A stretch of DNA of 37,548 nucleotides from IMG/VR virus record IMGVR_UViG_2636416131_000002. The stretch is one strand, 5' to 3'. Made by a program: the position numbers and the translations under genes. Under the pieces are notes generated by a model. That model was not told the DNA's origin. It searched no databases and saw only the letters and a list, made by a program, of their open reading frames with translations. Shown here one piece after another: positions 1,064 through 18,339 of this stretch. Each line of letters begins with the position of its first letter. Within the stretch, counting starts at the first letter, position 1. The stretch is from a virus. Lineage: Duplodnaviria > Heunggongvirae > Uroviricota > Caudoviricetes.

Positions 1064-3535
1064 TTAAGAATCAGCCTGACTCGGGATCAGTTTTTGCCAG
1101 ATAACTGAAACGTATTTTGCCTGGTAACGGGCGTCATCAAGTGCATTATGGCGCTCACCTTCGAATGGAATAGCCGTTCTGGCATCGAAGTCTATGGCTT
1201 TCCCCAGCTCAACGATTGTGCGTACATCGCGATCGTTGTAGTAACGCCACGGGCAGGGGATCCCCTGCCGTTCGTATGAACGGCGCAAAATCGTGTTGTC
1301 GAAGTTGGCTCCATTTCCCCAAACCTGAACAAAAAATTCACCGGAGTTTTCGTCGATAAATTCCCGCAATTGTAACAGTGCATCATCTAACGGGATTTCA
1401 TCGGTCATAATGGCAGATTGCGCTTCGCGTGATTGCTTAAGCCACCATTTAATGGTGTCCCGATCAATGACTCCGCCAGCAGTTTCCAGATCGATAGTCT
1501 TACTAAATTCCGGTCCCATATCTCCGGTTTGCGGATCGAAAAATATTGCACCTATTGAGATGATCGGGGCATCAGGATTTTTTCCCATGGTTTCAAGGTC
1601 GATCATTAGATGGTCACACGTCCTGCTGGTGGATGTGATTTCGTGATGACCGTTCACCTTAATTGGGTGATCTGCCGTCTCGCCAGTTTCATTATCGCTA
1701 TTGTGATGCTGATTGCCGCCAGTGTTCTCCTTGTGTGGATGTTCAGCGCCTTCCATTTCCTCCGGATCATCTTCCTGAACTTCAACCTGATACTCTTCAT
1801 CGAATGTTTCTTGGTATGTTGCGTCGCCCATCACCGCGCCACAATCAGGGCAGTTGCCGCCGCCGGTCTGACCGCAGGCGGTGCAGGCTTTTTCCACTTC
1901 CTGTTGCGCCACTGGTTCAGGCTGTTTCGTTTCTGGCTCGTTTTGTAACGCATTTGGACTGTTTTGTTCCGCTTTTTGGTAGTTCCGTTCCGATTCATGC
2001 TGGTTCTGGTTCACAGAATCGCGGGTCTGGATCCCCTTAACCCATTTCGGATCATTCGGGTCACTAATCCCTTCAACAAATTCACCACGTGATGCAGCAA
2101 GCAACTTATCGGCGTCAGGCTGGCTGATATTGGCTGCCTGCATAATTTTGTTTACTTCGTCAGCGGTAACTTTTATCGGCTCTGGTTGTTCTGAATCTTC
2201 AGCGGTATCTACATTTTGCGGTAAGCCCGTGTATGTGCCATTTTTTCGGGCAAAATATTCTTCTTTTGTGATTTCAGTGGCGCCAGCAGCCAGTGCCTTA
2301 TCCAGACCAGAAAGTTTGTTTGCGCGACCGTATTTTTCTCCGTCCTTATCTGCGAAGAGGAAATAGAACGGCCCCTCACGCTCTACAGATGGTTCAGCTT
2401 CCGGCGCGGTTTCATTTTTTGGGATATCAGATACCTCAGTTTCCACTGCATCAGTTTGTGTTTCTGATGACTGGAGAACATCAACAGTGCCCAGGTCTGT
2501 TTCTTCATTCTCAAACACGCCCTTTGTCGTCAGGTATTCGCAGATATATTTGTTCAGTGCTACGGGATCTTTGTGAATGTCGATCGGACGCTCACGGACA
2601 AGGCCAAAAATAGTTTGGCGGTCGTAGCGAAGGGCATCAGGCTGTTTGCGCATTGATGCCGAGATACGCTTCCAGTCTTCGCGGTCGTTGTCGATAACTT
2701 CTTTTTTTGCCCAGCGATGGATGCTGCCGTCAATGTTTCCGGCATCCACATCACCAGGCCAGAGAGCGTAGGCCAGTTCGTCATCCAGTGTTTTCCATGT
2801 CTGCTTGTATTCGCGATGAATGGCAGCAATGACCGGGCTGATTTTTCCTGTTGAATTTTCAGTGTACTGTTGATTGGCTCTGGCGCGGGCGAGATCAACA
2901 ACAGACGTGTATTTTCCGGTTTCCTTGCGTTCACCTTCGCGACGTTTTTTCCAGATGCGCATCTCTGCCTGAATTTCGGGCCATTTAGCACCAGGAATAC
3001 ATTTATGCTTAACCCACCCAATGGCGTGCAACTTAAGCTCCGGATACATGGCGTTAACTTCTGGCATTTTCATCAACGCTTCAACGATATGTCCGTCGAA
3101 TGTTGCCATGTCTTCCTGCAACAATTCCTGTGCGCTAATAACCATATCAACGGTGATGTTTTCACATGTGTCGAACTTAACCATGACAGCGTTCTGTACT
3201 TCAGGGGCCAGCTTGTCAAAAGTGACGTTCATCGGATCGGATTCAGTCTCAACCGGGACAAAAGAAGCAGACTCCTCATCCCAGCGGTTTTCCTGCATAT
3301 ATTCAGCATCCCATGAATCGAGGGCAGGGCGGGGTATGCCAGGTTTATCCTCGCAGACAATAAATTTATAAGCGCAGTCCTGAGCAGCCGGATAATGTTC
3401 CAGGAACTGCCAGTGAAATTTTGCTCGAGCACGGCGTTCGTCGCCAGCTTCAATGGCTGTGGCTACAGCCACAGCGCCTTCTTCCCTTGTTGCCAGTTCG
3501 TCAGGAATAGCGGCGCAAATAAAGACTTTACTCAT
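1064..3535 (-). CDS. Prophage exonuclease, 823 aa: long acidic N-terminal region with a CxxC-x14-CxxC zinc ribbon plus C-terminal DnaQ-like DEDDh 3'-5' exonuclease domain
   Basis: C-terminus carries the DEDDh motifs (MIDLETMG; WGNGANFDNTIL; HNALDDARY). Zinc ribbon is CTACGQTGGGNCPDCG. GAGG ribosome-binding site upstream of the ATG at 3535. Sits where exo/recE lies in lambdoid phages. Confidence 0.8.
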   Translation of the reverse strand: MSKVFICAAIPDELATREEGAVAVATAIEAGDERRARAKFHWQFLEHYPAAQDCAYKFIVCEDKPGIPRPALDSWDAEYMQENRWDEESASFVPVETESDPMNVTFDKLAPEVQNAVMVKFDTCENITVDMVISAQELLQEDMATFDGHIVEALMKMPEVNAMYPELKLHAIGWVKHKCIPGAKWPEIQAEMRIWKKRREGERKETGKYTSVVDLARARANQQYTENSTGKISPVIAAIHREYKQTWKTLDDELAYALWPGDVDAGNIDGSIHRWAKKEVIDNDREDWKRISASMRKQPDALRYDRQTIFGLVRERPIDIHKDPVALNKYICEYLTTKGVFENEETDLGTVDVLQSSETQTDAVETEVSDIPKNETAPEAEPSVEREGPFYFLFADKDGEKYGRANKLSGLDKALAAGATEITKEEYFARKNGTYTGLPQNVDTAEDSEQPEPIKVTADEVNKIMQAANISQPDADKLLAASRGEFVEGISDPNDPKWVKGIQTRDSVNQNQHESERNYQKAEQNSPNALQNEPETKQPEPVAQQEVEKACTACGQTGGGNCPDCGAVMGDATYQETFDEEYQVEVQEDDPEEMEGAEHPHKENTGGNQHHNSDNETGETADHPIKVNGHHEITSTSRTCDHLMIDLETMGKNPDAPIISIGAIFFDPQTGDMGPEFSKTIDLETAGGVIDRDTIKWWLKQSREAQSAIMTDEIPLDDALLQLREFIDENSGEFFVQVWGNGANFDNTILRRSYERQGIPCPWRYYNDRDVRTIVELGKAIDFDARTAIPFEGERHNALDDARYQAKYVSVIWQKLIPSQADS

Positions 3536-4175: not shown

Positions 4176-4232
4176 AAAAGGGCGGCAGAGCAGTCACGGA
4201 GTAAAACTGATACCGCCAAACGTCACCAGAAA
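4176..4232 (-). ncRNA. dicF: DicF small RNA (Hfq-dependent, ftsZ-targeting) with its intrinsic terminator
   Basis: Reverse complement of 4176-4232 reads TTTCTGGTGACGTTTGGCGGTATCAGTTTTACTCCGTGACTGCTCTGCCGCCCTTTTT, matching DicF as I recall it; GC stem followed by a U run. Confidence 0.9.
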
Positions 4233-6634: not shown

Positions 6635-7580
6635 ACGCCCACTGGTTATAAACACACAGCTTGCGATGAAGATTGGCTTAAATGAAGCCATTGTGTTGCA
6701 GCAGTTGCATTACTGGTTGAGAGATACCAATTCCGGCATGGAATGTGATGGTGTTCGCTGGATTTACAACACAACGGAACAATGGCTGGAACAGTTCCCA
6801 TTCTGGTCAGAGTCAACGTTAAAGCGCGCGTTTGCAAGTCTGAAAACGCTGGGGCTTTTGCGTTGTGAAAAGCTCAATAAATCAAAGCGCGATATGACCA
6901 ATTTCTACACGATCAACTACGGGAGCGAGCTTTTAGATGGTGGCAAATTGAGCGAATCCATCGGTTTAAAATGCGCCGCTCCATCAGGTCAAAATGACAC
7001 GATGGAAGAGGTCAAAATGAAACGCTCCATTGGTTCAAAACGACCCAATGTCATCGGGTCAAAATGGCCTGATGATCTTACAGAGAATACAACAGAGATT
7101 ACTACAGAGAATAAAAACACTTTTCGTCCGGAAGCTTCGCAACCGGACCCGCAGACCGCTGAACAGGATTTTTTAACCCGGAACCCCGACGCGGTTGTGT
7201 TTAGTGCGAAAAAACGCCAGTGGGGTAGCAGGGAGGATTTGGCGTGTGCGCAGTGGATTTGGGGGCGGATCGTGAACCTTTACGAACAGGCTGCCAGCGA
7301 CGATGGAGAGATCATGCGACCAAAAGAGCCTAACTGGACAGCCTGGGCCAATGACGTGCGCACAATGCGGATGCTGGATGGCAGAAGCCACAGACAAATT
7401 TGCGAAATGTTTGGTCGGGTACAGCGAGATCAATTCTGGGTAAAAAACATCATGAGCCCGTCAAAACTCCGCGAAAAATGGGACGAACTGGTCATCCGCC
7501 TGGGACGTTCACCTGTACAGCGTTGTGTGAATCATATTTCTGAACCGGATACAGAAATTCCGCCTGGTTTCAGGGGATAA
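6615..7580 (+). CDS. Phage replication initiation protein (O-like / replisome-organizer type) containing the iteron array
   Basis: N-terminal winged-helix-like region (LNEAIVLQQLHYWLRD…LKRAFASLKTLGLL) and internal DNA iterons at 6956-7065, the lambda O / ori arrangement. Start chosen at the ATG at 6615, overlapping the upstream gene. Confidence 0.65.
   Translation: MSLLFAERPLVINTQLAMKIGLNEAIVLQQLHYWLRDTNSGMECDGVRWIYNTTEQWLEQFPFWSESTLKRAFASLKTLGLLRCEKLNKSKRDMTNFYTINYGSELLDGGKLSESIGLKCAAPSGQNDTMEEVKMKRSIGSKRPNVIGSKWPDDLTENTTEITTENKNTFRPEASQPDPQTAEQDFLTRNPDAVVFSAKKRQWGSREDLACAQWIWGRIVNLYEQAASDDGEIMRPKEPNWTAWANDVRTMRMLDGRSHRQICEMFGRVQRDQFWVKNIMSPSKLREKWDELVIRLGRSPVQRCVNHISEPDTEIPPGFRG
6956..7065. 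repeat. Five iterons, consensus TCCATCnGGTCAAAATG, spaced 22-24 bp (candidate origin)
   Basis: Copies start at about 6956, 6980, 7003, 7025 and 7049, read directly; located inside the replication gene. Confidence 0.7.
7080..7113. repeat. Three ACAGAGAWTA repeats at 12-bp period in an AT-rich stretch next to the iterons
   Basis: ACAGAGAATA, ACAGAGATTA, ACAGAGAATA read directly; iterons followed by an AT-rich segment is the lambda ori pattern. Confidence 0.4.
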
Positions 7581-7620
7581 GTGTTGATTTTAGGGTATAA
7601 AGTAATGTTCAGGAGGACTT

Positions 7621-8040
7621 GTGGCAAAAGTTTTTACACAAGAAGAGCGGGAAAAAATTAAAGGGCAGGTGGTGGAACTCGTACGCCAGAGTGGGCGCGA
7701 GACGTTACGACAACTGGAAGCTAAAACTGGGGCAACAAGATATCTGATGAGCGTTCTGGCCAGAGAGCTGGTTGCCAGTGGCGATGTATACAGCTCTGGT
7801 TACGGGTTATTCCCGTCTGAACAGGCGCGTAAGGACTGGCAAAACGCCCGCAAAAAACTCTCGAGGGCAAAGGTGAAGAAACCTGCTGTGGTTGATCCGG
7901 ACCTTATCTGGTCATTACCTGACGGAGAAATACGTCGCTACGACAGTCGTCTAAACATAATCTGTCGCGAGTGCCGGAAGGCAAGGAGAAGCAGGCTATT
8001 GTTAACACCAAGCTGTAATGTCCCCTTTGAACCATTCTAA
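7621..8040 (+). CDS. Hypothetical protein, 139 aa, GTG start; 3' end may be altered by the adjacent insertion sequence
   Basis: Strong AGGAGG ribosome-binding site before GTG at 7621. Sits where a helicase loader would be expected, but no Walker motif is visible. ORF ends 34 nt before the transposase ATG. Confidence 0.5.
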   Translation: MAKVFTQEEREKIKGQVVELVRQSGRETLRQLEAKTGATRYLMSVLARELVASGDVYSSGYGLFPSEQARKDWQNARKKLSRAKVKKPAVVDPDLIWSLPDGEIRRYDSRLNIICRECRKARRSRLLLTPSCNVPFEPF

Positions 8041-9640
8041 AATGTCCCCAGACAATTCTCTGGGGGATTTTTCATGATCAAAGAGACTGTTACGATGAGT
8101 CATAAGGAACTCCACCGACTTCAGATTATTCAGGAGTCAATTAATCGACATATTACTCAGGAACAAGCTGCGGCACGCATTGGCATTTCTATTCGGCAGG
8201 TTAAACGTCTGGTGCAACGGTATAGAAATGAAGGGCCTTCTGGTCTGGTTTCCCACCGACGTGGAAAGCGTCCTAATAATTCCTTTTCTACTGAATTCAG
8301 AGCAACAGTAATTTCACTCCTCAAAGGCCGTTACGCTGATTTTGGACCTACGTTTGCGTGCGAAAAATTGCGCGAGATACACGGTTTATCTTTATCCGTT
8401 GAAACTCTCAGAAAGTGGATGATAGAAGAGGGGTTATGGCGTGAACGCCGTCGTAAAATTGCCCGTATATATCAACGCCGCATGCGACGACCATCTTACG
8501 GTGAACTGATCCAGATTGATGGCTCACCTCATGACTGGTTTGAAAATCGAGGCCCCAGATGTACACTGATCGTTTTCATTGATGATGCCACCAGTGCGTT
8601 GATGGCGTTGCGTTTTGTGCCTGCTGAAACAACCCGGGCTTACATGGAAACCCTCCGGGGTTACCTTAATGATCATGGCGTACCGCTCGCTCTCTACTCT
8701 GATAGACACAGTATATTCAGGGTAAATAACCCAGAGCGGGAAGGTGAGCTGACCCAGTTCACTCGTGCGATAAAGACACTGGGCATCGAGCCAATCCATG
8801 CCAACAGCCCGCAGGCAAAAGGGCGGGTAGAGCGCGCCAATCAGACACTACAGGACAGGCTGGTCAAAGAAATGCGGCTTCAGAATATCAGTGATATTGA
8901 AACAGCAAATGCATGGTTGCCGACCTTTATTGAAGCCTATAACAACCGGTTCGCTACGTCGCCTCGTACTACTGATAATGCTCATCTTGATGTGCACCAT
9001 TCTGAAGAGGAACTGGGTTATATCTTCAGCCTACAGGCGAAGCGCGTTCTGTCTAAAAATCTCACTTTCCAGTACAAAAGCAGTGCGTTTCAGGTACGCA
9101 GTGAGGGCCGGGGATATCGACTTAGGCATTCAGTTGTTACTGTATGTGAGAACTTTGACGGTGAAATTAACGTTCTGTATGACGGGAAAGCGCTGGGCTG
9201 GGAAAAGTATGTTGATGGCCCGGAGCCTATACCACTGGATGATGAAAAGAGTGTCCATGAACGAGTGGATAATGCCCGTATTGATTTACGCTCAAAATAC
9301 TATGTTAAATCTAAAGCTGACCATCCCTGCTTACGCGCCGAACGCAAAGTCATCAGTAAGTTAAGCCCCCGAAGTTACCTAAAAAGAAGCCTGATCCCGA
9401 TAAAATAGATTGAAACCAAGATCGATTCGGTTGAGTGCATATCCATTCATAGGGTAGATTCTTAAGTCGCGTTTCTGGTGTTCATTTTCGGGTGGTTTGT
9501 TACTTGTTTTACCGGGGATATGCCAGAAACGCGCTGAGTCAGTCTGGGCGGTGCGCGTAATGAGGCGTTATGGTAAATAGCCTATGCTAATGTCCGCTAA
9601 GAGCAAGAAGCGGAAGTTGGCAGTTTTGTGGACTGTCCCC
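8041..9640 (+). mobile_element. Insertion sequence carrying the 444-aa transposase; ends not resolved
   Basis: Transposase gene interrupts the replication / nin region. I could not identify terminal inverted repeats; TGTCCCCA occurs in direct orientation at 8043-8050 and 9634-9641 and might mark a target duplication. Boundaries are approximate. Confidence 0.3.
8074..9408 (+). CDS. DDE transposase (rve / integrase-core type), 444 aa, N-terminal HTH
   Basis: N-terminal HTH (ITQEQAAARIGISIRQVKRLVQRY), central integrase-core-like region with conserved D/E residues, size and layout typical of single-ORF IS481 / ISNCY-like elements. Family not resolved without search. Confidence 0.8.
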   Translation: MIKETVTMSHKELHRLQIIQESINRHITQEQAAARIGISIRQVKRLVQRYRNEGPSGLVSHRRGKRPNNSFSTEFRATVISLLKGRYADFGPTFACEKLREIHGLSLSVETLRKWMIEEGLWRERRRKIARIYQRRMRRPSYGELIQIDGSPHDWFENRGPRCTLIVFIDDATSALMALRFVPAETTRAYMETLRGYLNDHGVPLALYSDRHSIFRVNNPEREGELTQFTRAIKTLGIEPIHANSPQAKGRVERANQTLQDRLVKEMRLQNISDIETANAWLPTFIEAYNNRFATSPRTTDNAHLDVHHSEEELGYIFSLQAKRVLSKNLTFQYKSSAFQVRSEGRGYRLRHSVVTVCENFDGEINVLYDGKALGWEKYVDGPEPIPLDDEKSVHERVDNARIDLRSKYYVKSKADHPCLRAERKVISKLSPRSYLKRSLIPIK

Positions 9641-9808
9641 ACAAAAGTGACTACAGAAATAGTTGCAATTCATAATTGATCATGGGTTGTCAGTTAAACT
9701 CGTGGCGATTTAAATAGACTAATTGGGAGTGCGTCCATTACTTATATCTTGTAATGTTAACTATCAGAAATGATACAAAGATAATATGTCTTTAAAGAAA
9801 AGGCTGAT

Positions 9809-9835
9809 GGCGAAAAGTGGCCCGATGAGGGCCAC
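9809..9835 (-). terminator. Intrinsic terminator downstream of flxA
   Basis: Stem GTGGCCC / GGGCCAC with 5-nt loop, followed on the minus strand by TTTTCG. Confidence 0.6.
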
Positions 9836-9849
9836 AATACGGCTGTCAC

Positions 9850-10182
9850 TTAGACGTAAATATCAATGGTGCCAGCGGTATTTGTATCGTCTTTTTTCTC
9901 TTCTTTTTTATCAGGCTGAACTGTCGCGTCTTTATTCTTTTTCTCTGCCTGCTGCCTTAACAACTGCTCCAGTTGAGCCCTGAGGCTTTCAATTTGCTTC
10001 TGTACCAATGCAGCCATTTCTTTTTTCTGCTGTGTCGTCATCCCCTCTTCCGATGAGATTTTCCCAAGCTTTTCAGTCAGCACCTGAATTTGTCTTGTGA
10101 TTTTGGCTATTTCTGATGTTCCTTCCGGGGCGGAGTTGTTTGAAATAACGGTTGAGGTATTTCCCTGAATTGTGACAGACAT
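9850..10182 (-). CDS. flxA: FlxA (FliA-regulated protein), 110 aa
   Basis: MSVTIQGNTSTVISNNSAPEG…, coiled-coil rich, AGGAG ribosome-binding site, sigma-28 promoter directly upstream. Matches Qin flxA in length and sequence as recalled. Confidence 0.85.
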   Translation of the reverse strand: MSVTIQGNTSTVISNNSAPEGTSEIAKITRQIQVLTEKLGKISSEEGMTTQQKKEMAALVQKQIESLRAQLEQLLRQQAEKKNKDATVQPDKKEEKKDDTNTAGTIDIYV

Positions 10183-10205
10183 AGATTTCTCCTTTTAAAA
10201 AAGCA

Positions 10206-10232
10206 CTATCGGCATGCACAAAAAAATCTTTA
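10206..10232 (-). promoter_or_regulatory. Sigma-28 (FliA) class-3 promoter: TAAAGATT, 11 nt, GCCGATAG
   Basis: Minus strand reads TAAAGATT-N11-GCCGATAG against consensus TAAAGTTT-N11-GCCGATAA, about 25 nt upstream of the flxA ATG. Confidence 0.7.
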
Positions 10233-10384
10233 ATCGTATTTCTTGTGTCATTAATTGTTTGATGTTCAGATTGTTTTCCTCGCGGGCTGGCGCGCCTCAG
10301 AAAGTAAAGCTTGTTGACAGGGGTAAACGTTCGGCAATAATTTTCTGCCGCATGCGGGTGTTGCATAAAACGTGCTACGTTCCT

Positions 10385-10690
10385 TTATCGACAGGTCAGG
10401 TCACCACTCACCCGCCGACGAGAAAGCAACACTGACATGCTAAAGCAAAAAATAGATGAATAAGTTGAGTTGTGCATATGTAGCCTGACCGTCACAAAGT
10501 ATATGGTGTCTGTACCAGTAAGATGATGGCCGGACTCTTTAAAAACGAGCTGACCTGCACAATACAGGATGGACTTAGCAATGGCTGCTCCTGGCACAAA
10601 GCGGACAGTGATCACCGTTCTTACGACTACTTTCTGACTTCCTTCGTGACTTGCCCTAAGCATGTTGTAGTGCGATACTTGTAATGACAT
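10385..10690 (-). CDS. YdfV-like ORF, 101 aa
   Basis: Length equals K-12 ydfV and position (between flxA and relB) agrees. Composition is not strongly protein-like and it overlaps the relBE promoter region. Confidence 0.3.
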   Translation of the reverse strand: MSLQVSHYNMLRASHEGSQKVVVRTVITVRFVPGAAIAKSILYCAGQLVFKESGHHLTGTDTIYFVTVRLHMHNSTYSSIFCFSMSVLLSRRRVSGDLTCR

Positions 10691-10703
10691 TTGTAATTAC
10701 AAG
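10677..10703. promoter_or_regulatory. relBE operator: palindrome CTTGTAAT…ATTACAAG
   Basis: ACTTGTAATGACATTTGTAATTACAAGA read directly, 12 nt upstream of the relB ATG. Confidence 0.6.
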
Positions 10704-10714
10704 AGGTGTAAGAC

Positions 10715-10954
10715 ATGGGTAGCATTAACCTGCGTATTGACGATGAACTTAAAGCGCGTTCTTACGCCGCGCTTGAAAAAATGGGTGTAACTCCTTCTGA
10801 AGCGCTTCGTCTCATGCTCGAGTATATCGCTGACAATGAACGCTTGCCGTTCAAACAGACACTCCTGAGTGATGAAGATGCTGAACTTGTGGAGATAGTG
10901 AAAGAACGGCTTCGTAATCCTAAGCCAGTACGTGTGACGCTGGATGAACTCTGA
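10715..10954 (+). CDS. relB: RelB antitoxin, 79 aa
   Basis: MGSINLRIDDELKARSYAALEKMGVTPSEALRLMLEYIADNERLPF…; stop overlaps the relE start. Confidence 0.9.
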   Translation: MGSINLRIDDELKARSYAALEKMGVTPSEALRLMLEYIADNERLPFKQTLLSDEDAELVEIVKERLRNPKPVRVTLDEL

Positions 10955-11241
10955 TGGCGTATTTTCTGGATTTTGACGAGCGGGCACTAAAGGAATGGCG
11001 AAAGCTGGGCTCGACGGTACGTGAACAGTTGAAAAAGAAGCTGGTTGAAGTACTTGAGTCACCCCGGATTGAAGCAAACAAGCTCCGTGGTATGCCTGAT
11101 TGTTACAAGATTAAGCTCCGGTCTTCAGGCTATCGCCTTGTATACCAGGTTATAGACGAGAAAGTTGTCGTTTTCGTGATTTCTGTTGGGAAAAGAGAAC
11201 GCTCGGAAGTATATAGCGAGGCGGTCAAACGCATTCTCTGA
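10954..11241 (+). CDS. relE: RelE mRNA-interferase toxin, 95 aa
   Basis: MAYFLDFDERALKEWRKLGSTVREQLKKKL…RLVYQVIDEKVVVFVISVGKRERSEVY, translationally coupled to relB. Confidence 0.9.
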   Translation: MAYFLDFDERALKEWRKLGSTVREQLKKKLVEVLESPRIEANKLRGMPDCYKIKLRSSGYRLVYQVIDEKVVVFVISVGKRERSEVYSEAVKRIL

Positions 11242-11312
11242 ACCAAAGCATGACATCTCTGTTTCGCACCGAAGGTGACACTTCTGCTTTGCGTTGACAG
11301 GAGAAGCAGGCT

Positions 11313-11468
11313 ATGAAGCAGCAAAAGGCGATGTTAATCGCCCTGATCGTCATCTGTTTAACCGTCATAGTGACGGCACTGGTAACGAGGAAAGACCTCT
11401 GCGAGGTACGAATCCGAACCGGCCAGACGGAGGTCGCTGTCTTCACAGCTTACGAACCTGAGGAGTAA
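11313..11468 (+). CDS. hokD: HokD (RelF) Hok-family membrane toxin, 51 aa; below the ORF-track size cutoff
   Basis: Translated by hand: MKQQKAMLIALIVICLTVIVTALVTRKDLCEVRIRTGQTEVAVFTAYEPEE, third gene of the relBEF operon. Confidence 0.85.
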   Translation: MKQQKAMLIALIVICLTVIVTALVTRKDLCEVRIRTGQTEVAVFTAYEPEE

Positions 11469-11536
11469 GAGACCCGGCGGGGGAGAAATCCCTCGCCACC
11501 TCTGATGTGGCAGGCATCCTCAACGCACCCGCACTT

Positions 11537-11567
11537 AACCCGCTTCGGCGGGTTTTTGTTTTTATTT
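11537..11567 (+). terminator. Intrinsic terminator after hokD
   Basis: ACCCGC-TTCG-GCGGGT stem-loop followed by TTTTTGTTTTTATTTT. Confidence 0.8.
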
Positions 11568-11684
11568 TCAACGCGTTTGAAGTTCTGGACGGTGCCGGAA
11601 TAGAATCAAAAATACTTAAGTAGCGCGCAGGGATAAGAGGGATGGTCCCTTAAAGGGGAGAGCTAATTATCCGGAAGGATTCTG

Positions 11685-11936
11685 ATGATGAACATCGAAG
11701 AACTGCGTAAAATTTTTTGTGAAGATGGCCTCTATGCTGTGTGCGTTGAAAATGGAAATCTTGTTAGTCATTACCGCATTATGTGTTTGCGAAAGAATGG
11801 GGCTGCGTTAATTAATTTTGTGGATGCTCGGGTCACGGACGGATTTATCTTGCGCGAAGGTGAGTTTGTCACTTCATTACAGGCATTGAAAGAGATCGGA
11901 ATAAAAGCTGGCTTTTCTGCTTTTTCAGGAGAATAA
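11685..11936 (+). CDS. rem: Rem-like protein, 83 aa
   Basis: 83-aa ORF between the relBEF terminator and ydfU, matching the position and length of Qin rem. Confidence 0.6.
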   Translation: MMNIEELRKIFCEDGLYAVCVENGNLVSHYRIMCLRKNGAALINFVDARVTDGFILREGEFVTSLQALKEIGIKAGFSAFSGE

Positions 11937-12002
11937 ACTCATCTACAATCTTGCGCGGGGCTGAACTCCCGCTGAGTAACACCGTGCCACCGGAGAAAAC
12001 CG

Positions 12003-12281
12003 ATGGCACGCAACGCAAAATATTACAATTCTGATAATTCGCCCGTTCTTGCCTGCACGCACGGGCGGTATTCTCACGCATTCAAGTCTGAATGGTTCCA
12101 GCACCCTCCATGCACTGCAGAACAGGCCGAATGGCTGATTCATTCTTACCGCAGGCGCGGGTTCGAGGTTAAGAAAGCTCTCAGTCTCGACTATCGGCAC
12201 TGGATAATCTCTGTCAGGCTGCCTTATTCCGAACGCCCACCACGTGCGTCCCGCACTTTCCAGCAACGGATCTGGAGGTAA
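12003..12281 (+). CDS. Hypothetical small protein, 92 aa, translationally coupled to ydfU
   Basis: GGAGAAAA ribosome-binding site before the ATG; stop lies 1 nt before the ydfU GTG. No family recognised. Confidence 0.35.
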   Translation: MARNAKYYNSDNSPVLACTHGRYSHAFKSEWFQHPPCTAEQAEWLIHSYRRRGFEVKKALSLDYRHWIISVRLPYSERPPRASRTFQQRIWR

Positions 12282-12282
12282 C

Positions 12283-13332
12283 GTGCGGGTATTACTTAGA
12301 CCTGTTCTGGTGCCTGAGCTTGGGCTGGTGGTCCTTAAGCCGGGCCGTGAATCCATACAGATATTTCATAATCCTCGAGTGCTGGTGGAACCGGAACCAA
12401 AAAGCATGCGTAATCTGCCATCCGGAGTCGTTCCTGCCGTTCGCCAGCCGCTGGCGGAAGACAAAACATTGCTGCCGTTTTTTAGTAACGAACGGGTGAT
12501 TCGTGCTGCTGGCGGCGTTGGCGCATTGTCCGACTGGCTATTACGTCATGTTACATCCTGCCAGTGGCCTAATGGCGATTACCATCACACTGAAACAGTC
12601 ATTCACCGTTATGGTACCGGCGCAATGGTGTTGTGCTGGCACTGCGACAACCAACTGCGTGACCAGACATCGGAATCACTGGAGCTGCTTGCTCAACAAA
12701 ATCTGACAGCATGGGTGATTGACGTCATCCGTCACGCAATAAGCGGTACGCAGGAGCGGGAATTATCTTTGGCTGAATTATCCTGGTGGGCGGTCTGCAA
12801 TCAGGTGGTGGATGCACTACCTGAGGCTGTATCGCGTCGTTCGCTGGGATTACCAGCGGAAAAAATCTGCTCGGTGTACCGCGAAAGCGACATCGTACCG
12901 GGAGAGCAGACCGCCACCAGCATATTGAAACAACGCACAAAAAATCTTGCACCGTTGCCTTACGCCCACCAGCAACAAAAATCACCACAGGAAAAGACGG
13001 TGGTAAGCATCACCGTTGATCCAGAGTCTCCGGAATCTTTCATGAAGCTGCCTAAACGTCGCCGCTGGGTTAAGGAGAAATACACACGTTGGGTTAAGAC
13101 ACAGCCGTGTGCTTGCTGCGGTATGCCAGCCGACGATCCGCATCATCTGATTGGTCACGGGCAGGGCGGAATGGGAACAAAAGCACATGATCTCTTTGTG
13201 TTGCCTTTGTGCAGAAAGCATCACAACGAGCTGCATACGGATACAGTGGCATTTGAAGATAAGTATGGCTCCCAACTGGAGCTGATATTTCGTTTTATCG
13301 ATCGCGCGCTGGCAATTGGCGTACTGGCGTAA
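12283..13332 (+). CDS. ydfU: YdfU-like DUF968 protein, 349 aa, with C-terminal Cys/His cluster
   Basis: GTG start preceded by GGAGG gives 349 aa, equal to K-12 YdfU. C-terminal motif CACCGMPADDPHHLIGHGQGGMGTKAHDLFVLPLCRKHHNELH. Confidence 0.75.
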   Translation: MRVLLRPVLVPELGLVVLKPGRESIQIFHNPRVLVEPEPKSMRNLPSGVVPAVRQPLAEDKTLLPFFSNERVIRAAGGVGALSDWLLRHVTSCQWPNGDYHHTETVIHRYGTGAMVLCWHCDNQLRDQTSESLELLAQQNLTAWVIDVIRHAISGTQERELSLAELSWWAVCNQVVDALPEAVSRRSLGLPAEKICSVYRESDIVPGEQTATSILKQRTKNLAPLPYAHQQQKSPQEKTVVSITVDPESPESFMKLPKRRRWVKEKYTRWVKTQPCACCGMPADDPHHLIGHGQGGMGTKAHDLFVLPLCRKHHNELHTDTVAFEDKYGSQLELIFRFIDRALAIGVLA

Positions 13333-13345
13333 GTGGAGAACGAGC

Positions 13346-14098
13346 ATGAACCTTGAAGCCTTACCAAAATATTACTCCCCAAAATCTCCAAAATTGAGCG
13401 ATGACGCTCCAGCGACAGGCACCGGTTGTTTAACAATTACGGATGTAATGGCAGCGCAGGGGATGGTGCAGTCGAAAGCACCACTTGGGTTGGCCTTATT
13501 TCTGGCAAAAGTTGGTGTTCAGGACCCTCAGTTTGCGATTGAAGGCCTGCTAAATTACGCGATGGCACTGGATAACCCGACATTGAACAAATTGAGTGAA
13601 GAAATCCGGTTACAGATTATTCCTTACCTCGTGAGTTTTGCCTTTGCTGATTACTCCAGGTCTGCGGCAAGTAAGGCTCGCTGTGAGCATTGTTCAGGTA
13701 CGGGATTTTATAATGTATTGCGCGAAGTGGTGAAACACTACAGACGCGGGGAATCTGTAATCAAGGAAGAATGGGTGAAGGAACTATGTCAGCATTGCCA
13801 TGGTAAGGGCGAAGCCAGCACAGCGTGCAGAGGGTGTAAGGGTAAAGGGATTGTTCTGGATGAAAAAAGAACCCGGTTTCATGGCGTACCGGTATATAAG
13901 ATTTGTGGGCGTTGTAATGGAAACCGGTTTAGTCGTTTACCGACCACGCTGGCACGACGTCATGTCCAGAAGCTGGTACCAGACCTGACCGATTATCAGT
14001 GGTATAAGGGGTATGCGGACGTCATTGGTAAACTGGTAACAAAGTGCTGGCAGGAAGAAGCATACGCGGAAGCGCAATTGAGGAAGGTGACGAGATAA
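13346..14098 (+). CDS. quuQ: Late-gene antiterminator Q (phage 82 / 21 type), 250 aa
   Basis: MNLEALPKYYSPKSPKLSDDAPATGTGC… with zinc-binding CxxC pairs (CEHCSGTG, CQHCHGKG, CRGCKGKG, CGRCNG). GGAG ribosome-binding site; followed by a late promoter and terminator. Confidence 0.85.
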   Translation: MNLEALPKYYSPKSPKLSDDAPATGTGCLTITDVMAAQGMVQSKAPLGLALFLAKVGVQDPQFAIEGLLNYAMALDNPTLNKLSEEIRLQIIPYLVSFAFADYSRSAASKARCEHCSGTGFYNVLREVVKHYRRGESVIKEEWVKELCQHCHGKGEASTACRGCKGKGIVLDEKRTRFHGVPVYKICGRCNGNRFSRLPTTLARRHVQKLVPDLTDYQWYKGYADVIGKLVTKCWQEEAYAEAQLRKVTR

Positions 14099-14732: not shown

Positions 14733-15032
14733 AAAAATTCCTTAATACTGATAACTTGGCGCACTATACACACGTTCCTGAAGAAAGCTATAGTTTTTTG
14801 ATGGGGTTGAAGATGGCTGGATGTCTAAAATAAACATTGCTTCATATGTTCAACTATGCGTTAATGATTGCGTCGGTTTGAAGAACAGACGATATACGAA
14901 GTAGTTTACTAAAGCAGTTCTCATTTCAGGTGTTATTCATTTATTCCTTCTTTGAGTCTCTCCAATTAAGTACGAAGTCGTTTCTGTTATGCAAACCATT
15001 TATGCCGAAAGGCTCAAGTTAAGGAATGTAGA

Positions 15033-15248
15033 ATGTCAAATAAAATGACTGGTTTAGTAAAATGGTTTAACGCTGATAAAGGTTTCGGCTTTATTTCTCC
15101 TGTTGATGGTAGTAAAGATGTGTTTGTGCATTTTTCTGCGATTCAGAATGATAATTATCGAACCTTATTTGAAGGTCAAAAGGTTACCTTCTCTATAGAG
15201 AGTGGTGCTAAAGGTCCTGCAGCAGCAAATGTCATCATTACTGATTAA
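15033..15248 (+). CDS. cspB: Cold-shock protein CspB, 71 aa
   Basis: [71 protein letters not shown]. Confidence 0.95.
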
Positions 15249-15528
15249 AATTCATCGCTCGTCTGTATACGATAACGAAGAAGGCTGATGCCTGAGTAGA
15301 GATACGGACAGAGTAGTGAATATTGGATTTCTTTAATAAAAATTAAGGAGGTCCAATACATGAAACAATGGCCAGCATATTTGGCAAAATCTTAATCAGG
15401 AAAAGTATGCTAACCATTGTGGTGAAGTGCAGGTTTGCTGCATGAATAGTTTTACAGCAGAAGCTAACTGCTGGCATGGCAAAACAAAGTGCGTAAGTGG
15501 ATGACTCCCACAAAAAGCACCACAATCT

Positions 15529-17557: not shown

Positions 17558-17921
17558 GGTAATATTAAATCGGAACATTTACATCGCGGAATGTAAAATT
17601 TAAATAAAAAGGACTCTTCCATGAGCCAAAATTCCTGAAATCTTAAGGGTAAGATAAAAGGTCTTAATCAGAATGACACGTTATTATTAATAAATAAAGC
17701 TATTCTTTCATTGCTGTGTTTTTCTTTACAAAAGTAATCCTTGCTATGGGTGGTTAATCATGCGTTAATGGTGTTCTGGTTTGTTACAAATTTATCTGAA
17801 GCAGTCATTGTTATAATTTTATTATTTGTACCTCTTGAGATTTCCTTGTTGGTTTTTCTCTCTGATATTTTTTTTTCGGACCATTCTGCCCAAGGGCTAA
17901 TTTCTTCAAAAGGTAATAATT

Positions 17922-18134
17922 ATGTCTAACAAAATGACTGGTTTAGTGAAATGGTTTAACCCTGAAAAAGGTTTTGGTTTCATCACGCCGAAAGATGGCA
18001 GCAAAGATGTGTTTGTCCATTTCTCAGCAATTCAGAGCAACGATTTCAAAACATTAACTGAGAATCAGGAAGTTGAATTTGGTATTGAGAACGGACCTAA
18101 AGGTCCTGCCGCTGTTCATGTAGTGGCGCTTTGA
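17922..18134 (+). CDS. cspI: Cold-shock protein CspI, 70 aa
   Basis: [70 protein letters not shown]. Confidence 0.95.
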
Positions 18135-18339
18135 GGTAGACAATATTACAAACCATATTCACTTTAGATGCCCGTGTTGTCATGGTTCCCAGTATAGAAC
18201 ATCATCTTTTGATGTTTCTGACATGAATCCTTTCGGGGCAAAATGTATCTTTTGTAAATCAATGATGATTACATTTGATAATATTTCACAATACTTAAAT
18301 GCCAGCCGTCTGTCGTTGGATTTAAAAAAGTGAAAATGA

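What the first reader, a model, noticed from the sequence alone, without database searches (positions are those of the whole stretch)
9809..11567. Moron cluster: sigma-28-driven flxA beside a relB-relE-hokD toxin-antitoxin operon
flxA carries a near-consensus FliA promoter, tying a prophage gene to the host flagellar regulon. Next to it, relBE with its palindromic operator and the Hok-family toxin hokD form a compact addiction / persistence module ended by a strong terminator. Both units have their own promoters and terminators and are transcribed independently of the phage operons.
Basis: partly seen in the sequence, partly recalled or inferred. Interest (0 to 1): 0.4.

Follow-up and report, generated by a model that had tools for sequence, protein, structure and literature searches.

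The report
Transposon carrying flxA and relBE

Summary
Window 9230-13500 is 99.8% identical to the E. coli K-12 Qin prophage. relB, relE, hokD and rem match K-12 base for base. The flxA sigma-28 promoter is the exact sequence shown experimentally to bind FliA and to need it.

The "moron cluster" reading is only partly right. Window 8000-11298 is a single transposable unit. It has imperfect terminal inverted repeats (22/30), a 15-16-bp target duplication (7984-7999 and 11299-11314), an ISEsa1-type (IS1202-family) transposase, a variable cargo slot (here flxA) and a conserved relBE module next to the right end.

The same 3.3-kb unit (99.76% identical) sits in an IncI plasmid with a different exact 16-bp duplication. 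Versions of 4.3-12.8 kb with other cargo (nickel/chromate resistance, CDF transporter) occur in plasmids and chromosomes of other genera.

Fourteen of 22 distinct insertion sites are hok-family ribosome-binding/start sites. hokD is therefore the target gene. It is cut off from its Sok/mok control region and read through from the relBE promoter, and the "strong terminator" is hok's own.

The 2023 IS1202-family survey lists ISEsa1 as 1609 bp with no target duplication. Earlier work already said that relBE integration truncated hokD. I found no paper naming the transposon.

The parts
7971..7983 (+). Last 13 nt of the hok 5' regulatory region (GTGCCGGAAGGCA hairpin), left behind on the left side of the insertion. 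In this lineage the rest of the region, including sok, has been deleted.
   Evidence: With the reconstructed empty site as query, phage hok loci match from position 272, which is window 7971. See also the alignment. PhiR42_1 keeps about 1.98 kb more here, including a sok hit.
7984..7999 (.). Left copy of the target-site duplication, AGGAGAAGCAGGCTAT (hok Shine-Dalgarno sequence plus the AT of the ATG).
   Evidence: It is an exact 16-nt direct repeat with 11299-11314 (D11). Uninterrupted hok loci carry a single copy.
8000..8029 (+). Left terminal inverted repeat (IRL), TGTTAACACCAAGCTGTAATGTCCCCTTTG.
   Evidence: It matches the reverse complement of 11270-11299 at 22/30 positions, and the best of 200 shuffles reached 19/29. 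A simple IS relative in Hahella has the same termini.
8074..9408 (+). ISEsa1-type (IS1202-family) DDE transposase, 444 aa. The last 26 residues are frameshifted by a 1-bp deletion at 9328.
   Evidence: Pfam HTH_28/HTH_29/HTH_32 plus rve_3. RefSeq names the homologue 'IS1202-like element ISEsa1 family transposase'.
9592..9615 (.). Palindrome site 1 (GTCCGCT-N10-AGCGGAA). It marks the end of the conserved transposase module and the start of the variable cargo.
   Evidence: It is conserved at the same position in all related elements. Homology between elements with different cargo ends at window 9604-9629.
9813..9835 (-). flxA intrinsic terminator: a 7-bp GC stem GUGGCCC/GGGCCAC followed by UUUU.
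   Evidence: The fold gives -17.3 kcal/mol with z = -2.9. The T-run is too short for the scanner used.
9850..10182 (-). flxA, the cargo gene of this version of the transposon.
   Evidence: It is annotated FlxA in K-12, O26, PhiR42_1 and the IncI plasmid.
10206..10232 (-). FliA (sigma-28) class-3 promoter of flxA, TAAAGATT-N11-GCCGATAG.
   Evidence: The sequence is identical to the K-12 flxA FliA site, for which normalised expression is tabulated as 280 versus 2 (PMC4183435).
10385..10690 (-). Annotated ORF ydfV, probably not a gene. It straddles the junction between the cargo and the relBE module.
   Evidence: Only the first ~34 codons are conserved between elements. The frame and the C-terminus differ with each cargo. 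There is no Pfam hit.
10583..10606 (.). Palindrome site 2 (GGCTGCT-N10-AGCGGAC; consensus GTCCGCT-YCTGGCACAR-AGCGGAC). It marks the start of the conserved toxin-antitoxin module.
   Evidence: The relBE module aligns from window ~10587 in Kluyvera, Leclercia and plasmid elements that carry unrelated cargo.
10651..10702 (+). relBE promoter (TTGCCC-17-GATACT) overlapping the operator relO (TTGTAATGACAT TTGTAATTACAA, 10679-10702).
   Evidence: Inverted repeats. The half-site sequences and the [A/T]TGT[A/C]A hexads are as in PMC2812701. The -35/-10 assignment is my reading of the sequence.
10715..10954 (+). relB antitoxin / repressor.
   Evidence: identical to K-12.
10954..11241 (+). relE mRNA-interferase toxin.
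   Evidence: identical to K-12.
11270..11299 (-). Right terminal inverted repeat (IRR). Its reverse complement is TGTCAACGCAAAGCAGAAGTGTCACCTTCG.
   Evidence: It is found next to relBE in L018, L023, L033, L077, L086, L089 and L090. Each time, the sequence that precedes IRL follows it exactly or nearly so; L089 is the exception.
11299..11314 (.). Right copy of the target-site duplication. It regenerates the hok Shine-Dalgarno sequence and ATG.
   Evidence: Homology to complete phage hok loci begins exactly at 11299.
11313..11468 (+). hokD (relF), a Hok-family membrane toxin ORF. It is the target gene and lies outside the transposon.
11525..11564 (+). Native 3' end of the hok mRNA: the fbi-like GCACCCGC (its tac partner GCGGGTGC is absent from the window) and the terminator hairpin 11537-11554 with its T-run.
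   Evidence: This region is shared at 96-99% identity with phage hok loci that lack relBE.

Best explanation
**What it is.** The interval is the K-12-type flxA-ydfV-relB-relE-hokD segment of a Qin-like lambdoid prophage. Everything from 8000 to 11298 is one transposon of the ISEsa1 / IS1202 family.

**Layout.** The order is: IRL, transposase, 24-bp palindrome, cargo (here flxA with its FliA-dependent promoter and its own terminator), a second palindrome, the relBE promoter/operator with relB and relE, then IRR.

**Insertion.** The element inserted into the ribosome-binding site and start codon of the prophage's hok gene and duplicated 15-16 bp (AGGAGAAGCAGGCTAT). The right-hand copy of the duplication rebuilds an intact Shine-Dalgarno sequence and ATG, so the Hok ORF (hokD) survives. 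It is now separated from its own promoter, the mok start and the Sok antisense RNA.

**Transcription.** relBE has no terminator and points outward. The RelB2-RelE-repressed relBE transcript therefore runs across IRR into hokD and stops at hok's native terminator. That is the 'relBEF operon'.

**What is shown here.** The boundaries, the repeats, the duplication, recurrence of the same unit at other sites, and the loss or separation of the sok region.

**What comes from K-12 literature on identical sequence.** FliA dependence of flxA, RelB/RelE operator binding, and co-transcription of relBEF.

**What is inferred.** Three points are inferred. The transposase moves the whole unit by staggered cuts 15-16 bp apart. 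The terminal toxin-antitoxin module stabilises whatever replicon receives the transposon. The clade actively prefers hok start regions.
For: **Identity with K-12.** Identity is 99.8% over 4272 nt, and relB, relE, hokD and rem are identical in DNA.

**Boundaries of the unit.**
- An exact 16-nt repeat lies at 7984-7999 and 11299-11314. The right copy coincides to the base with the point where homology to complete phage hok loci begins.
- IRL and IRR match at 22/30. This is the best site in the whole 3.3 kb and exceeds the maximum of 200 shuffles. The ISfinder-type right end at ~9608 gives only 12/30.
- A 61%-identical transposase in Hahella belongs to a clean 1449-bp IS with the same termini (TGTTA.../TGTCAAC...) and 15-17-bp duplications.

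**Independent insertions flanked by the same inverted repeats and by exact duplications of unrelated sequence.**
- IncI-gamma/K1 plasmid: the same 3300-bp unit at 99.76% identity, duplication ATGGAGGGGCTATGAT at pndA.
- Phytobacter IncF plasmid: 12,842 bp with ncr/chr cargo, duplication AGGAGAAGTCAGCTAT at hok.
- Kluyvera chromosome: 4.6 kb, duplication TACCAAAACAAGCCCC.
- Scandinavium: 4.3 kb with a tacAT module in place of relBE, duplication ACATTAAGCTGCAAAT.

**Position relative to the hok control region.** The Rfam sok model ends exactly at IRL in three independent insertions. It is continuous in the uninterrupted BL21 locus and absent from the window.

**Sites without the element.** The BL21 prophage and mEp460 carry a single copy of the 16-mer. 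Strain 12689 has lygF joined to hokD with a 9-nt footprint.

**Target choice and spread.** 14 of 22 distinct left flanks are hok-family start regions (plus inspection). The relBE module occurs in 784 plasmid records and the transposase module in 831.

**Published function.** FliA, relO, relBEF co-transcription.
Against: - No transposition has been observed; all evidence is comparative.
- This window's transposase has a frameshifted C-terminal tail, and K-12 has lost IRL and most of the gene. These particular copies may be immobile.
- The inverted repeats are only 73% identical.
- ISfinder and the 2023 family survey define ISEsa1 as a 1609-bp IS. A shorter mobile form cannot be excluded.
- Many copies are related by descent on spreading plasmids and phages. 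In IMG/VR, 69 of 80 contigs share the one Qin junction. Independent events are therefore far fewer than copies, and the hok preference could partly reflect selection rather than transposase specificity.
- One Klebsiella copy has non-matching flanks.
- The benefit of relBE to the transposon is argued only by analogy with Tn3-family elements.
Confidence: 0.85

Rival explanations
1. flxA and relBE-hokD are two separate phage morons, each acquired on its own with its own promoter and terminator, and the neighbouring transposase is irrelevant.
For: flxA does have its own promoter and terminator. The block is absent from related prophages. Its GC content is somewhat below the flanks, at 0.39-0.47 against ~0.52-0.55 over ydfU.
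Against: The transposase, flxA, ydfV and relBE recur as one 99.76%-identical block between the same inverted repeats in an IncI plasmid, with a different exact duplication. relBE has no terminator before IRR (third fold). hokD belongs to the phage backbone that is shared with phages lacking relBE.
Confidence: 0.03
2. relBE integrated into hokD on its own, as a minimal promoter-plus-two-gene cassette acquired from plasmids (the published Ramisetty & Santhosh view). The ISEsa1 copy and flxA are unrelated neighbours.
For: PMC6379469 and PMC5120126 state that relBE came from plasmids, truncated the ancestral hokD/mok frame and lacks a terminator. The relBE module (10587-11298) is a discrete block found with many different left-hand neighbours.
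Against: The module always ends in the IRR. The duplicated target sequence lies beyond IRL, on the far side of the transposase, not beside relBE. A relative with the same ends carries tacAT in the same position.
Confidence: 0.05
3. ISEsa1 is a genuine 1.6-kb IS. The long units arise occasionally when the transposase skips a weak inner end and uses a solo IRR further away, so cargo and relBE are accidental rather than an organised part of the element.
For: ISfinder lists 1609 bp with IR 15/22. Homology between elements with different cargo stops at 9604-9629.
Against: There is no convincing inverted repeat near 9608 in this copy (12/30). The survey found no duplications for the 1.6-kb definition, whereas the long definition gives exact ones. 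A toxin-antitoxin module preceded by the same palindrome sits next to IRR in every complete element examined, including the tacAT one.
Confidence: 0.07

Closest known systems
E. coli K-12 MG1655 Qin prophage segment ydfW-flxA-ydfV-relB-relE-hokD(relF)-rem (b1561-b1567)
   Same: Same genes, order and sequence: 99.8% identity overall, and relBE, hokD and rem are identical. The FliA promoter, relO operator and terminator are the same.
   Different: K-12 keeps only the last ~180 bp of the transposase gene (annotated ydfW). It has lost IRL, the left duplication, lygF and the replication genes. Only fuller copies such as this window show the transposon. FlxA differs at two residues.
ISEsa1, IS1202 family (ISfinder; Harmer & Hall 2023, PMC10132070)
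   Same: Same transposase family and same left end. Window 8000-9608 is exactly the 1609 bp that is listed.
   Different: ISEsa1 is listed as 1609 bp with IR 15/22 and no detectable target duplication. Here the functional right end lies 1.7-11 kb further on, after a toxin-antitoxin module, and the duplication is 15-16 bp.
Toxin-antitoxin pairs carried by Tn3-family transposons (Lima-Mendez et al. 2020, PMC7157771)
   Same: A type II toxin-antitoxin pair is a constant part of a transposon whose other passenger genes vary. The module type can be swapped (relBE or tacAT).
   Different: The transposase family is different (a DDE IS1202 type with no resolvase). The module sits at the extreme right end and, for relBE, reads outward into the flanking DNA.
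hok/mok/sok type I systems of plasmid R1 and of lambdoid phages (mEp460, PPompW, BL21 prophage)
   Same: The HokD ORF, its Shine-Dalgarno sequence, 3' fbi-like element and terminator are 96-99% identical to the phage loci.
   Different: The window has no Sok gene, no mok start and no tac element. The Rfam sok model finds nothing here but scores 104-128 bits in the control loci.
ISAjo2-type IS1202-family elements that target dif/pdif sites (PMC10132070)
   Same: A precedent within the same family for strong target-site choice.
   Different: The target here is the hok translation-initiation region, not a Xer site. The duplication is long (15-16 bp) rather than 3-5 bp.
Phage morons
   Same: Accessory DNA, dispensable for the phage and present or absent among related prophages. 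flxA is an autonomous transcription unit.
   Different: The block arrived as one transposon with its own transposase. The same unit lives on conjugative plasmids.

Membership tests
FliA (sigma-28) dependent class-3 promoter | -35 TAAAGTTT and -10 GCCGATAA separated by 11 nt, upstream of the gene | tested here: met
   TAAAGATT-N11-GCCGATAG matches 7/8 and 7/8. The -10 element ends 23 nt before the flxA ATG. It is the only match in the window, with 0 expected.
FliA (sigma-28) dependent class-3 promoter | FliA binding in vivo and FliA-dependent expression | not testable with these tools
   Shown in K-12 for the identical 28-nt sequence by ChIP-seq and RNA-seq, with tabulated expression of 280 versus 2 (PMC4183435).
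RelBE type II toxin-antitoxin system | RHH antitoxin RelB followed by a RelE/ParE-fold toxin in one operon | tested here: met
   PF04221 (E = 1e-32) and PF05016 (E = 2e-13), with overlapping stop and start at 10954. The proteins are identical to K-12.
RelBE type II toxin-antitoxin system | Operator relO with four [A/T]TGT[A/C]A hexads in two abutting 12-bp half-sites over the promoter | tested here: met
   TTGTAATGACAT and TTGTAATTACAA at 10679-10702, as defined in PMC2812701.
[quoted passage not shown] | Hok/Gef-family toxin ORF | tested here: met
   PF01848, E = 1.2e-23. The protein is identical to K-12 HokD.
[quoted passage not shown] | Sok antisense RNA gene, mok start and 5' tac element upstream of hok | tested here: not met
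   There is no RF01794 hit in the window, even at E <= 10. The same model scores 104-128 bits in mEp460, PPompW, BL21, PhiR42_1 and plasmid loci. Homology starts 14 nt before the ATG. No tac-like partner lies within the operon.
IS1202-family transposable element (ISEsa1 subgroup) | DDE (rve) transposase with an N-terminal HTH | tested here: met
   Pfam HTH_28/29/32 plus rve_3. RefSeq names the homologue accordingly. The tail is frameshifted in this copy.
IS1202-family transposable element (ISEsa1 subgroup) | Terminal inverted repeats at both ends of the mobile unit | tested here: met
   22/30 between 8000-8029 and 11270-11299. The termini match those of the Hahella IS.
IS1202-family transposable element (ISEsa1 subgroup) | Direct duplication of the target site, at different targets in independent copies | tested here: met
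   Exact 15-16-bp duplications at five unrelated sequences.
IS1202-family transposable element (ISEsa1 subgroup) | Demonstrated transposition | not testable with these tools
   Needs a mating-out or papillation assay.
Phage moron | Autonomous promoter-gene-terminator unit inserted between genes that are adjacent in related phages | tested here: inconclusive
   flxA meets the definition, and the block is absent from the BL21 prophage and mEp460. However, relBE lacks its own terminator, and the block as a whole is a transposon also found on plasmids.

The most novel reading that the evidence does not exclude
The ISEsa1-type elements of enterobacteria form a family of modular transposons armed with a toxin-antitoxin pair. 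They specifically home to the start codon of hok-family toxin genes on plasmids and prophages. The insertion disconnects the resident type I toxin from its Sok/mok control and makes it the last cistron of the transposon's own relBE operon, so one addiction system takes over another. The elements would also exchange cargo cassettes (flxA, nickel/chromate resistance, transporters) by recombination at two conserved 24-bp palindromes. On this reading, the classic 'chromosomal' relBEF operon of E. coli K-12 is a decayed copy of such an element.
Probability: 0.3. Interest if true: 0.75.

Novelty: new variant of a known kind. Interest (0 to 1): 0.5.

Why it matters
relBE of E. coli K-12 is one of the reference "chromosomal" toxin-antitoxin systems, and relBEF is treated as a natural operon. 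This analysis has five consequences.

1. **Origin of the operon.** Showing that relBE is the fixed end-module of a transposon, and that hokD is simply the gene it landed in, explains three things at once. It explains why a type II pair and an orphan type I toxin are co-transcribed, why hokD has no Sok, and why the operon's terminator is hok's.
2. **ISEsa1 definition.** It likely corrects the published definition of ISEsa1 (1609 bp, no target duplication).
3. **Resistance cargo.** It identifies the vehicle of a nickel/chromate-resistance block on Klebsiella and Phytobacter conjugative plasmids.
4. **Target choice.** It suggests a target preference that can be tested directly.
5. **flxA.** flxA is a transposon passenger wired to the host flagellar sigma factor, not a prophage invention.

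Tried and rejected
1. **A displaced hok 5' half.** I tested whether relBE had split the hok locus and left its promoter and tac half at 10314-10360, where a strong sigma-70-like site is followed by GCGGGTG. BLAST of 9700-11320 against the 5' halves of the mEp460 and PPompW hok loci found nothing beyond the 22 nt at 11299-11320. The 7-mer is a chance match.
2. **An inner right end near 9608** (the ISfinder length). The best match to IRL there is 12/30, below the shuffle mean.
3. **Rfam at a permissive threshold over 9700-11700.** This gave only sub-threshold hits (isrK-like 25 bits, rsmX and others) on the hok 3' UTR and terminator. The same weak isrK hit appears in hok loci of other phages. 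I treat these as noise.
4. **Strain 12689 as a pristine empty site.** It is not. It carries an extra AGGAGAAGC, so it is a deletion derivative. The BL21 and mEp460 loci serve as the uninterrupted target instead.
5. **A secondary IRR-like sequence at 10580/10626.** It scores 17-18/30, within the shuffle range, so I did not pursue it.
6. **Ramisetty & Santhosh 2016.** The paper could not be retrieved. Its content is known here only through two papers that cite it.
7. **A structure around the hokD TACG codon.** A short fold gave no significant structure (fourth fold).
Full report

Yes. Reading 9300-12200 and listing the ORFs gives the following genes:
- flxA, 9850-10182 on the minus strand
- the annotated ORF ydfV, 10385-10690 on the minus strand
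- relB, 10715-10954
- relE, 10954-11241
- hokD, 11313-11468
- rem, 11685-11936

Pfam confirms FlxA (PF14282), RelB (PF04221), the RelE/ParE toxin (PF05016) and Hok/Gef (PF01848).

A megablast of 9700-11700 finds 100% identical copies in many E. coli genomes. Of 5426 complete genomes, 1147 hold at least 80% of the query. Against K-12 MG1655, window 9230-13500 is 99.79% identical to the Qin prophage. The DNA of relB, relE, hokD and rem is identical to K-12, and FlxA differs at two residues.

**2.

*flxA promoter.* TAAAGATT-N11-GCCGATAG lies at 10206-10232 on the minus strand. It is the only such site in the window, and none of 100 shuffles produced a match. It is letter for letter the FliA site listed for flxA in the K-12 ChIP-seq/RNA-seq study, where normalised expression is tabulated as 280 versus 2 (PMC4183435). 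flxA ends in a 7-bp GC hairpin followed by UUUU (9813-9835).

*relBE operator.* The palindrome is relO. Its two half-sites, TTGTAATGACAT and TTGTAATTACAA, and its four [A/T]TGT[A/C]A hexads were mapped by mutagenesis and footprinting (PMC2812701).

*relBEF transcript.* relB, relE and relF (= hokD) are detected as one transcript that depends on the relBE promoter (PMC3598666).

*Terminator.* The hairpin at 11537-11554 with its T-run is real.

As worded, then, the finding is correct and already known.

**3. hokD is not a complete hok/sok locus, and the break is sharp**

The window has no match to the Rfam sok model, either at the gathering threshold or at E <= 10.

In the phage collection, only one record (PhiR42_1) holds the whole block. 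Every listed partial hit starts at query position 1600, which is window 11299. Alignment with the complete hok loci of phage mEp460 and the PPompW prophages shows near-identity from 11299 onward. That stretch covers the Shine-Dalgarno sequence, the ATG, the Hok ORF, the 3' fbi-like element, the terminator and rem. Upstream of 11299 there is no similarity. The Rfam sok model scores 115 and 104 bits in those two control loci.

**4. The block is one transposon**

*The repeat and the ends.* A repeat search over 7400-11500 returned an exact 16-nt direct repeat, AGGAGAAGCAGGCTAT, at 7984-7999 and 11299-11314. The right copy is exactly the homology breakpoint described above. Immediately inside the two copies lie imperfect inverted repeats:
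- IRL: TGTTAACACCAAGCTGTAATGTCCCCTTTG
- IRR (reverse complement): TGTCAACGCAAAGCAGAAGTGTCACCTTCG

They match at 22/30. This is the best candidate anywhere in 8100-11420 and lies above the maximum of 200 shuffles. Between them lie an intact-looking IS1202-family (ISEsa1-type) transposase gene (8074-9408), flxA, ydfV and relBE.

*The uninterrupted target.* The prophage of BL21(DE3) and phage mEp460 carry one copy of the 16-mer in front of hok. Strain 12689 has lygF joined directly to hokD, with nine extra nucleotides (AGGAGAAGC) as a deletion scar.

**5. Independent copies show that the whole unit moves**

Relatives of the transposase were fetched from one genome per species and from plasmids.

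| Host and replicon | Length | Contents | Target duplication |
|---|---|---|---|
| Salmonella IncI-gamma/K1 plasmid | 3300 bp, 99.76% identical to the window | flxA, ydfV, relBE | ATGGAGGGGCTATGAT (exact), at the start of the hok-family gene pndA |
| Phytobacter IncF plasmid | 12,842 bp | transposase, ncrYCBA, methyltransferase, chrBA, hupE, relBE | AGGAGAAGTCAGCTAT (exact), at a hok start |
| K. pneumoniae IncHI1B plasmid | 12,842 bp | same as the Phytobacter element | flanks do not match; probably recombinant |
| Kluyvera sp. chromosome | 4.6 kb | cytochrome b561, CDF transporter, relBE | TACCAAAACAAGCCCC (exact), not a hok site |
| Scandinavium hiltneri | 4.3 kb | GrpB, hexapeptide transferase, and TacA plus a GNAT toxin in place of relBE | ACATTAAGCTGCAAAT (exact) |

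Further copies in Kluyvera, Leclercia and a gut Enterobacteriaceae genome behave in the same way.

A more distant relative in Hahella (61% identical transposase) is a plain 1449-bp IS. It has the same terminal sequences and 15-17-bp duplications at eight sites. This fixes the TGTCAAC end as the family's true right end.

The 2023 survey of the IS1202 family lists ISEsa1 as 1609 bp, IR 15/22, with no duplication detectable (PMC10132070). Window 8000-9608 is exactly 1609 bp, and I find no good inverted repeat there. The likely reason for the missing duplication is that the right end was placed too early.

**6. Internal organisation**

Elements with different cargo share two blocks with the window:
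- the transposase module, 8000 to ~9610
- the relBE module, ~10587 to 11298

Each block is bordered on the cargo side by a 24-bp palindrome with the same 7-bp arms:
- site 1: GTCCGCT-AAGAGCGAGA-AGCGGAC (window 9592-9615)
- site 2: GTCCGCT-YCTGGCACAR-AGCGGAC (window 10583-10606)

Site 2 also precedes the tacAT module in Scandinavium. I cannot say what these sites do.

In this window the cargo is flxA plus about 400 bp of non-coding DNA. ydfV runs across the junction between the cargo and the relBE module. Only its first ~34 codons are shared between elements, and the reading frame is not kept. It is therefore probably an annotation artefact.

**7. Target choice**

Of 22 distinct left flanks, 14 are hok-family translation-initiation regions. 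They come from many different hok paralogues, and one insertion is in the opposite orientation (plus inspection of four flanks the script did not flag).

In three independent insertions the Rfam sok model ends exactly at IRL: phage PhiR42_1, the IncI plasmid and the IncF plasmid. In BL21 the same model runs uninterrupted into hokD. The element therefore separates the hok control region from the toxin ORF, and the duplication rebuilds the ribosome-binding site and ATG on the right side.

In PhiR42_1 and in Shigella flexneri the sok region is still present to the left of the element. The window's lineage later lost about 1.98 kb there.

The more distant elements (transposase 70-78% identical) sit at other kinds of site. 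Whether the preference is a property of the transposase or the result of selection cannot be decided here. Within the same family, ISAjo2-type elements target dif sites.

**8. How it most likely works**

*Shown by sequence comparison.* The unit's boundaries, its duplication, its recurrence elsewhere, and the absence of any terminator between relE and IRR.

*Shown in K-12 on identical DNA.* Sigma-28 drives flxA. RelB2-RelE binds relO and represses PrelBE. The transcript continues through hokD.

*Inferred.*
- The transposase cuts the target with a 15-16-bp stagger.
- The terminal toxin-antitoxin pair stabilises the recipient plasmid or prophage, as proposed for Tn3-family elements (PMC7157771).
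- HokD is poorly translated from the fused mRNA. It has lost mok coupling, and in the predicted fold its Shine-Dalgarno sequence is paired (z = -3.5).

The "persistence" label should be dropped. The role of the ten type II systems, including relBE, in persister formation was re-examined and not upheld (PMC6016239 and the exchange in PMC6156201).

**9. What was already known and what seems new**

*Known.* All four genes and their regulation. Also the statements that relBE came from plasmids, truncated the ancestral hokD/mok frame, lacks a terminator and is therefore co-transcribed with hokD (PMC6379469 and PMC5120126, both citing Ramisetty & Santhosh 2016).

*Not found in the literature I could search.*
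- None of the 16 papers that mention ISEsa1 has a title pointing to relBE, flxA or hok; the only one I opened was the IS1202-family survey.
- The single paper containing both 'relBE' and 'ISNCY' is unrelated.
- A 2025 review of toxin-antitoxin systems on mobile elements cites only Tn3 for transposons.
- A 2026 preprint cataloguing Hok does not mention IS1202.

The points that look new are the vehicle itself (inverted repeats, duplication, transposase), flxA as cargo, the metal-resistance versions and the hok targeting.

*Limits.* The 2016 paper could not be read, and ISfinder and TnCentral cannot be queried here. Novelty is therefore probable, not certain.

**10. Context and caveats**

The window is a much fuller Qin-like prophage than K-12's. 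It has replication, lysis, terminase, head and tail ORFs. It resembles the sequenced phage PhiR42_1 from ECOR13, which carries the same element.

In IMG/VR, 80 contigs contain the IRR, and 69 of them share the hokD junction. Among phages this is therefore essentially one ancestral insertion that has been inherited.

The transposase in this window has a 1-bp deletion that replaces its last 26 residues. K-12 retains only the 3' end of the gene, annotated as ydfW. These chromosomal copies may no longer be mobile.

**Verdict**

The genes are already known. The architecture behind them, a modular transposon ending in a toxin-antitoxin pair and inserted at a hok start codon, is a new variant of known kinds of element. 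It is of moderate interest.

Noticed in passing
window 9592-9615 and 10583-10606; also L018 5520-5543 / 7810-7833, L040 7045-7068, L090 13594-13617 / 24127-24150: Two 24-bp palindromes with identical 7-bp arms (GTCCGCT...AGCGGAC) but different 10-nt spacers bracket the variable cargo in every element of the family, including the one that carries tacAT instead of relBE. Their function is unknown. They could be recombination or protein-binding sites involved in cargo exchange.
   Followed up: partly
window 10385-10690 (-): The annotated gene ydfV spans the junction between the flxA cargo and the relBE module. Only ~34 N-terminal codons, which lie antisense to the relBE promoter region, are shared with other elements. 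The frame is broken in some of them, so ydfV is probably not a real gene.
   Followed up: yes
window 10314-10341 (+): A near-consensus sigma-70-type promoter (TTGACA-16-AATAAT, 11/12) lies in the non-coding stretch between flxA and relB. It points towards relB and has no obvious gene or RNA downstream.
   Followed up: no
window 9328 (within 8074-9408): A 1-bp deletion, relative to the K-12 remnant, the IncI plasmid and the Kluyvera copies, frameshifts the last 26 residues of the transposase. The majority version has a basic tail (...HPWLTRRTQSHQQVKPPKLPKKKPDPDKKD). The same variant is 100% identical on a Klebsiella michiganensis plasmid (L008).
   Followed up: partly
window 7621-8040 and 7918-7999: The DUF977 (lygF) ORF now reads through the hok 5' remnant and the left duplication into IRL. 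Relative to PhiR42_1, this lineage has lost ~1.98 kb, including a methyltransferase gene and the sok region. The deletion junction shows a ~10-nt overlap.
   Followed up: partly
L006 (E. coli strain 12689) 3290-3320: lygF and hokD are adjacent with the element gone, but an extra AGGAGAAGC remains. This looks like a deletion between short AGG repeats rather than a never-occupied site.
   Followed up: partly
window 11451-11454: hokD codon 47 is TAC within TACG. A 2026 Hok preprint reports TadA A-to-I editing (Tyr to Cys) at this kind of site in hokC, hokD and hokE. A short fold showed no significant hairpin around it.
   Followed up: partly
window 4180-4231 (-); 14872-15264 (+); 17775-18161 (+): The DicF antisense RNA (76.7 bits) and two cspA-type thermoregulator 5' UTRs (161 and 112 bits) are present, as expected for a Qin-like prophage carrying cspB/cspF/cspI-type genes.
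   Followed up: no
L089 / L090 (K. pneumoniae IncHI1B and Phytobacter IncF plasmids): The ncrYCBA nickel/cobalt and chrBA chromate resistance genes of these clinical plasmids lie inside a 12.8-kb member of the same transposon family. It ends in relBE and is inserted at a hok start codon next to psiB-psiA.
   Followed up: partly
window 11477-11558 (+); L003 and L005 3179-3260: A weak sub-threshold match to the Salmonella sRNA family isrK (25 bits; gathering threshold 50) falls on the hok 3' UTR and terminator, both here and in other phage hok loci.
   Followed up: no
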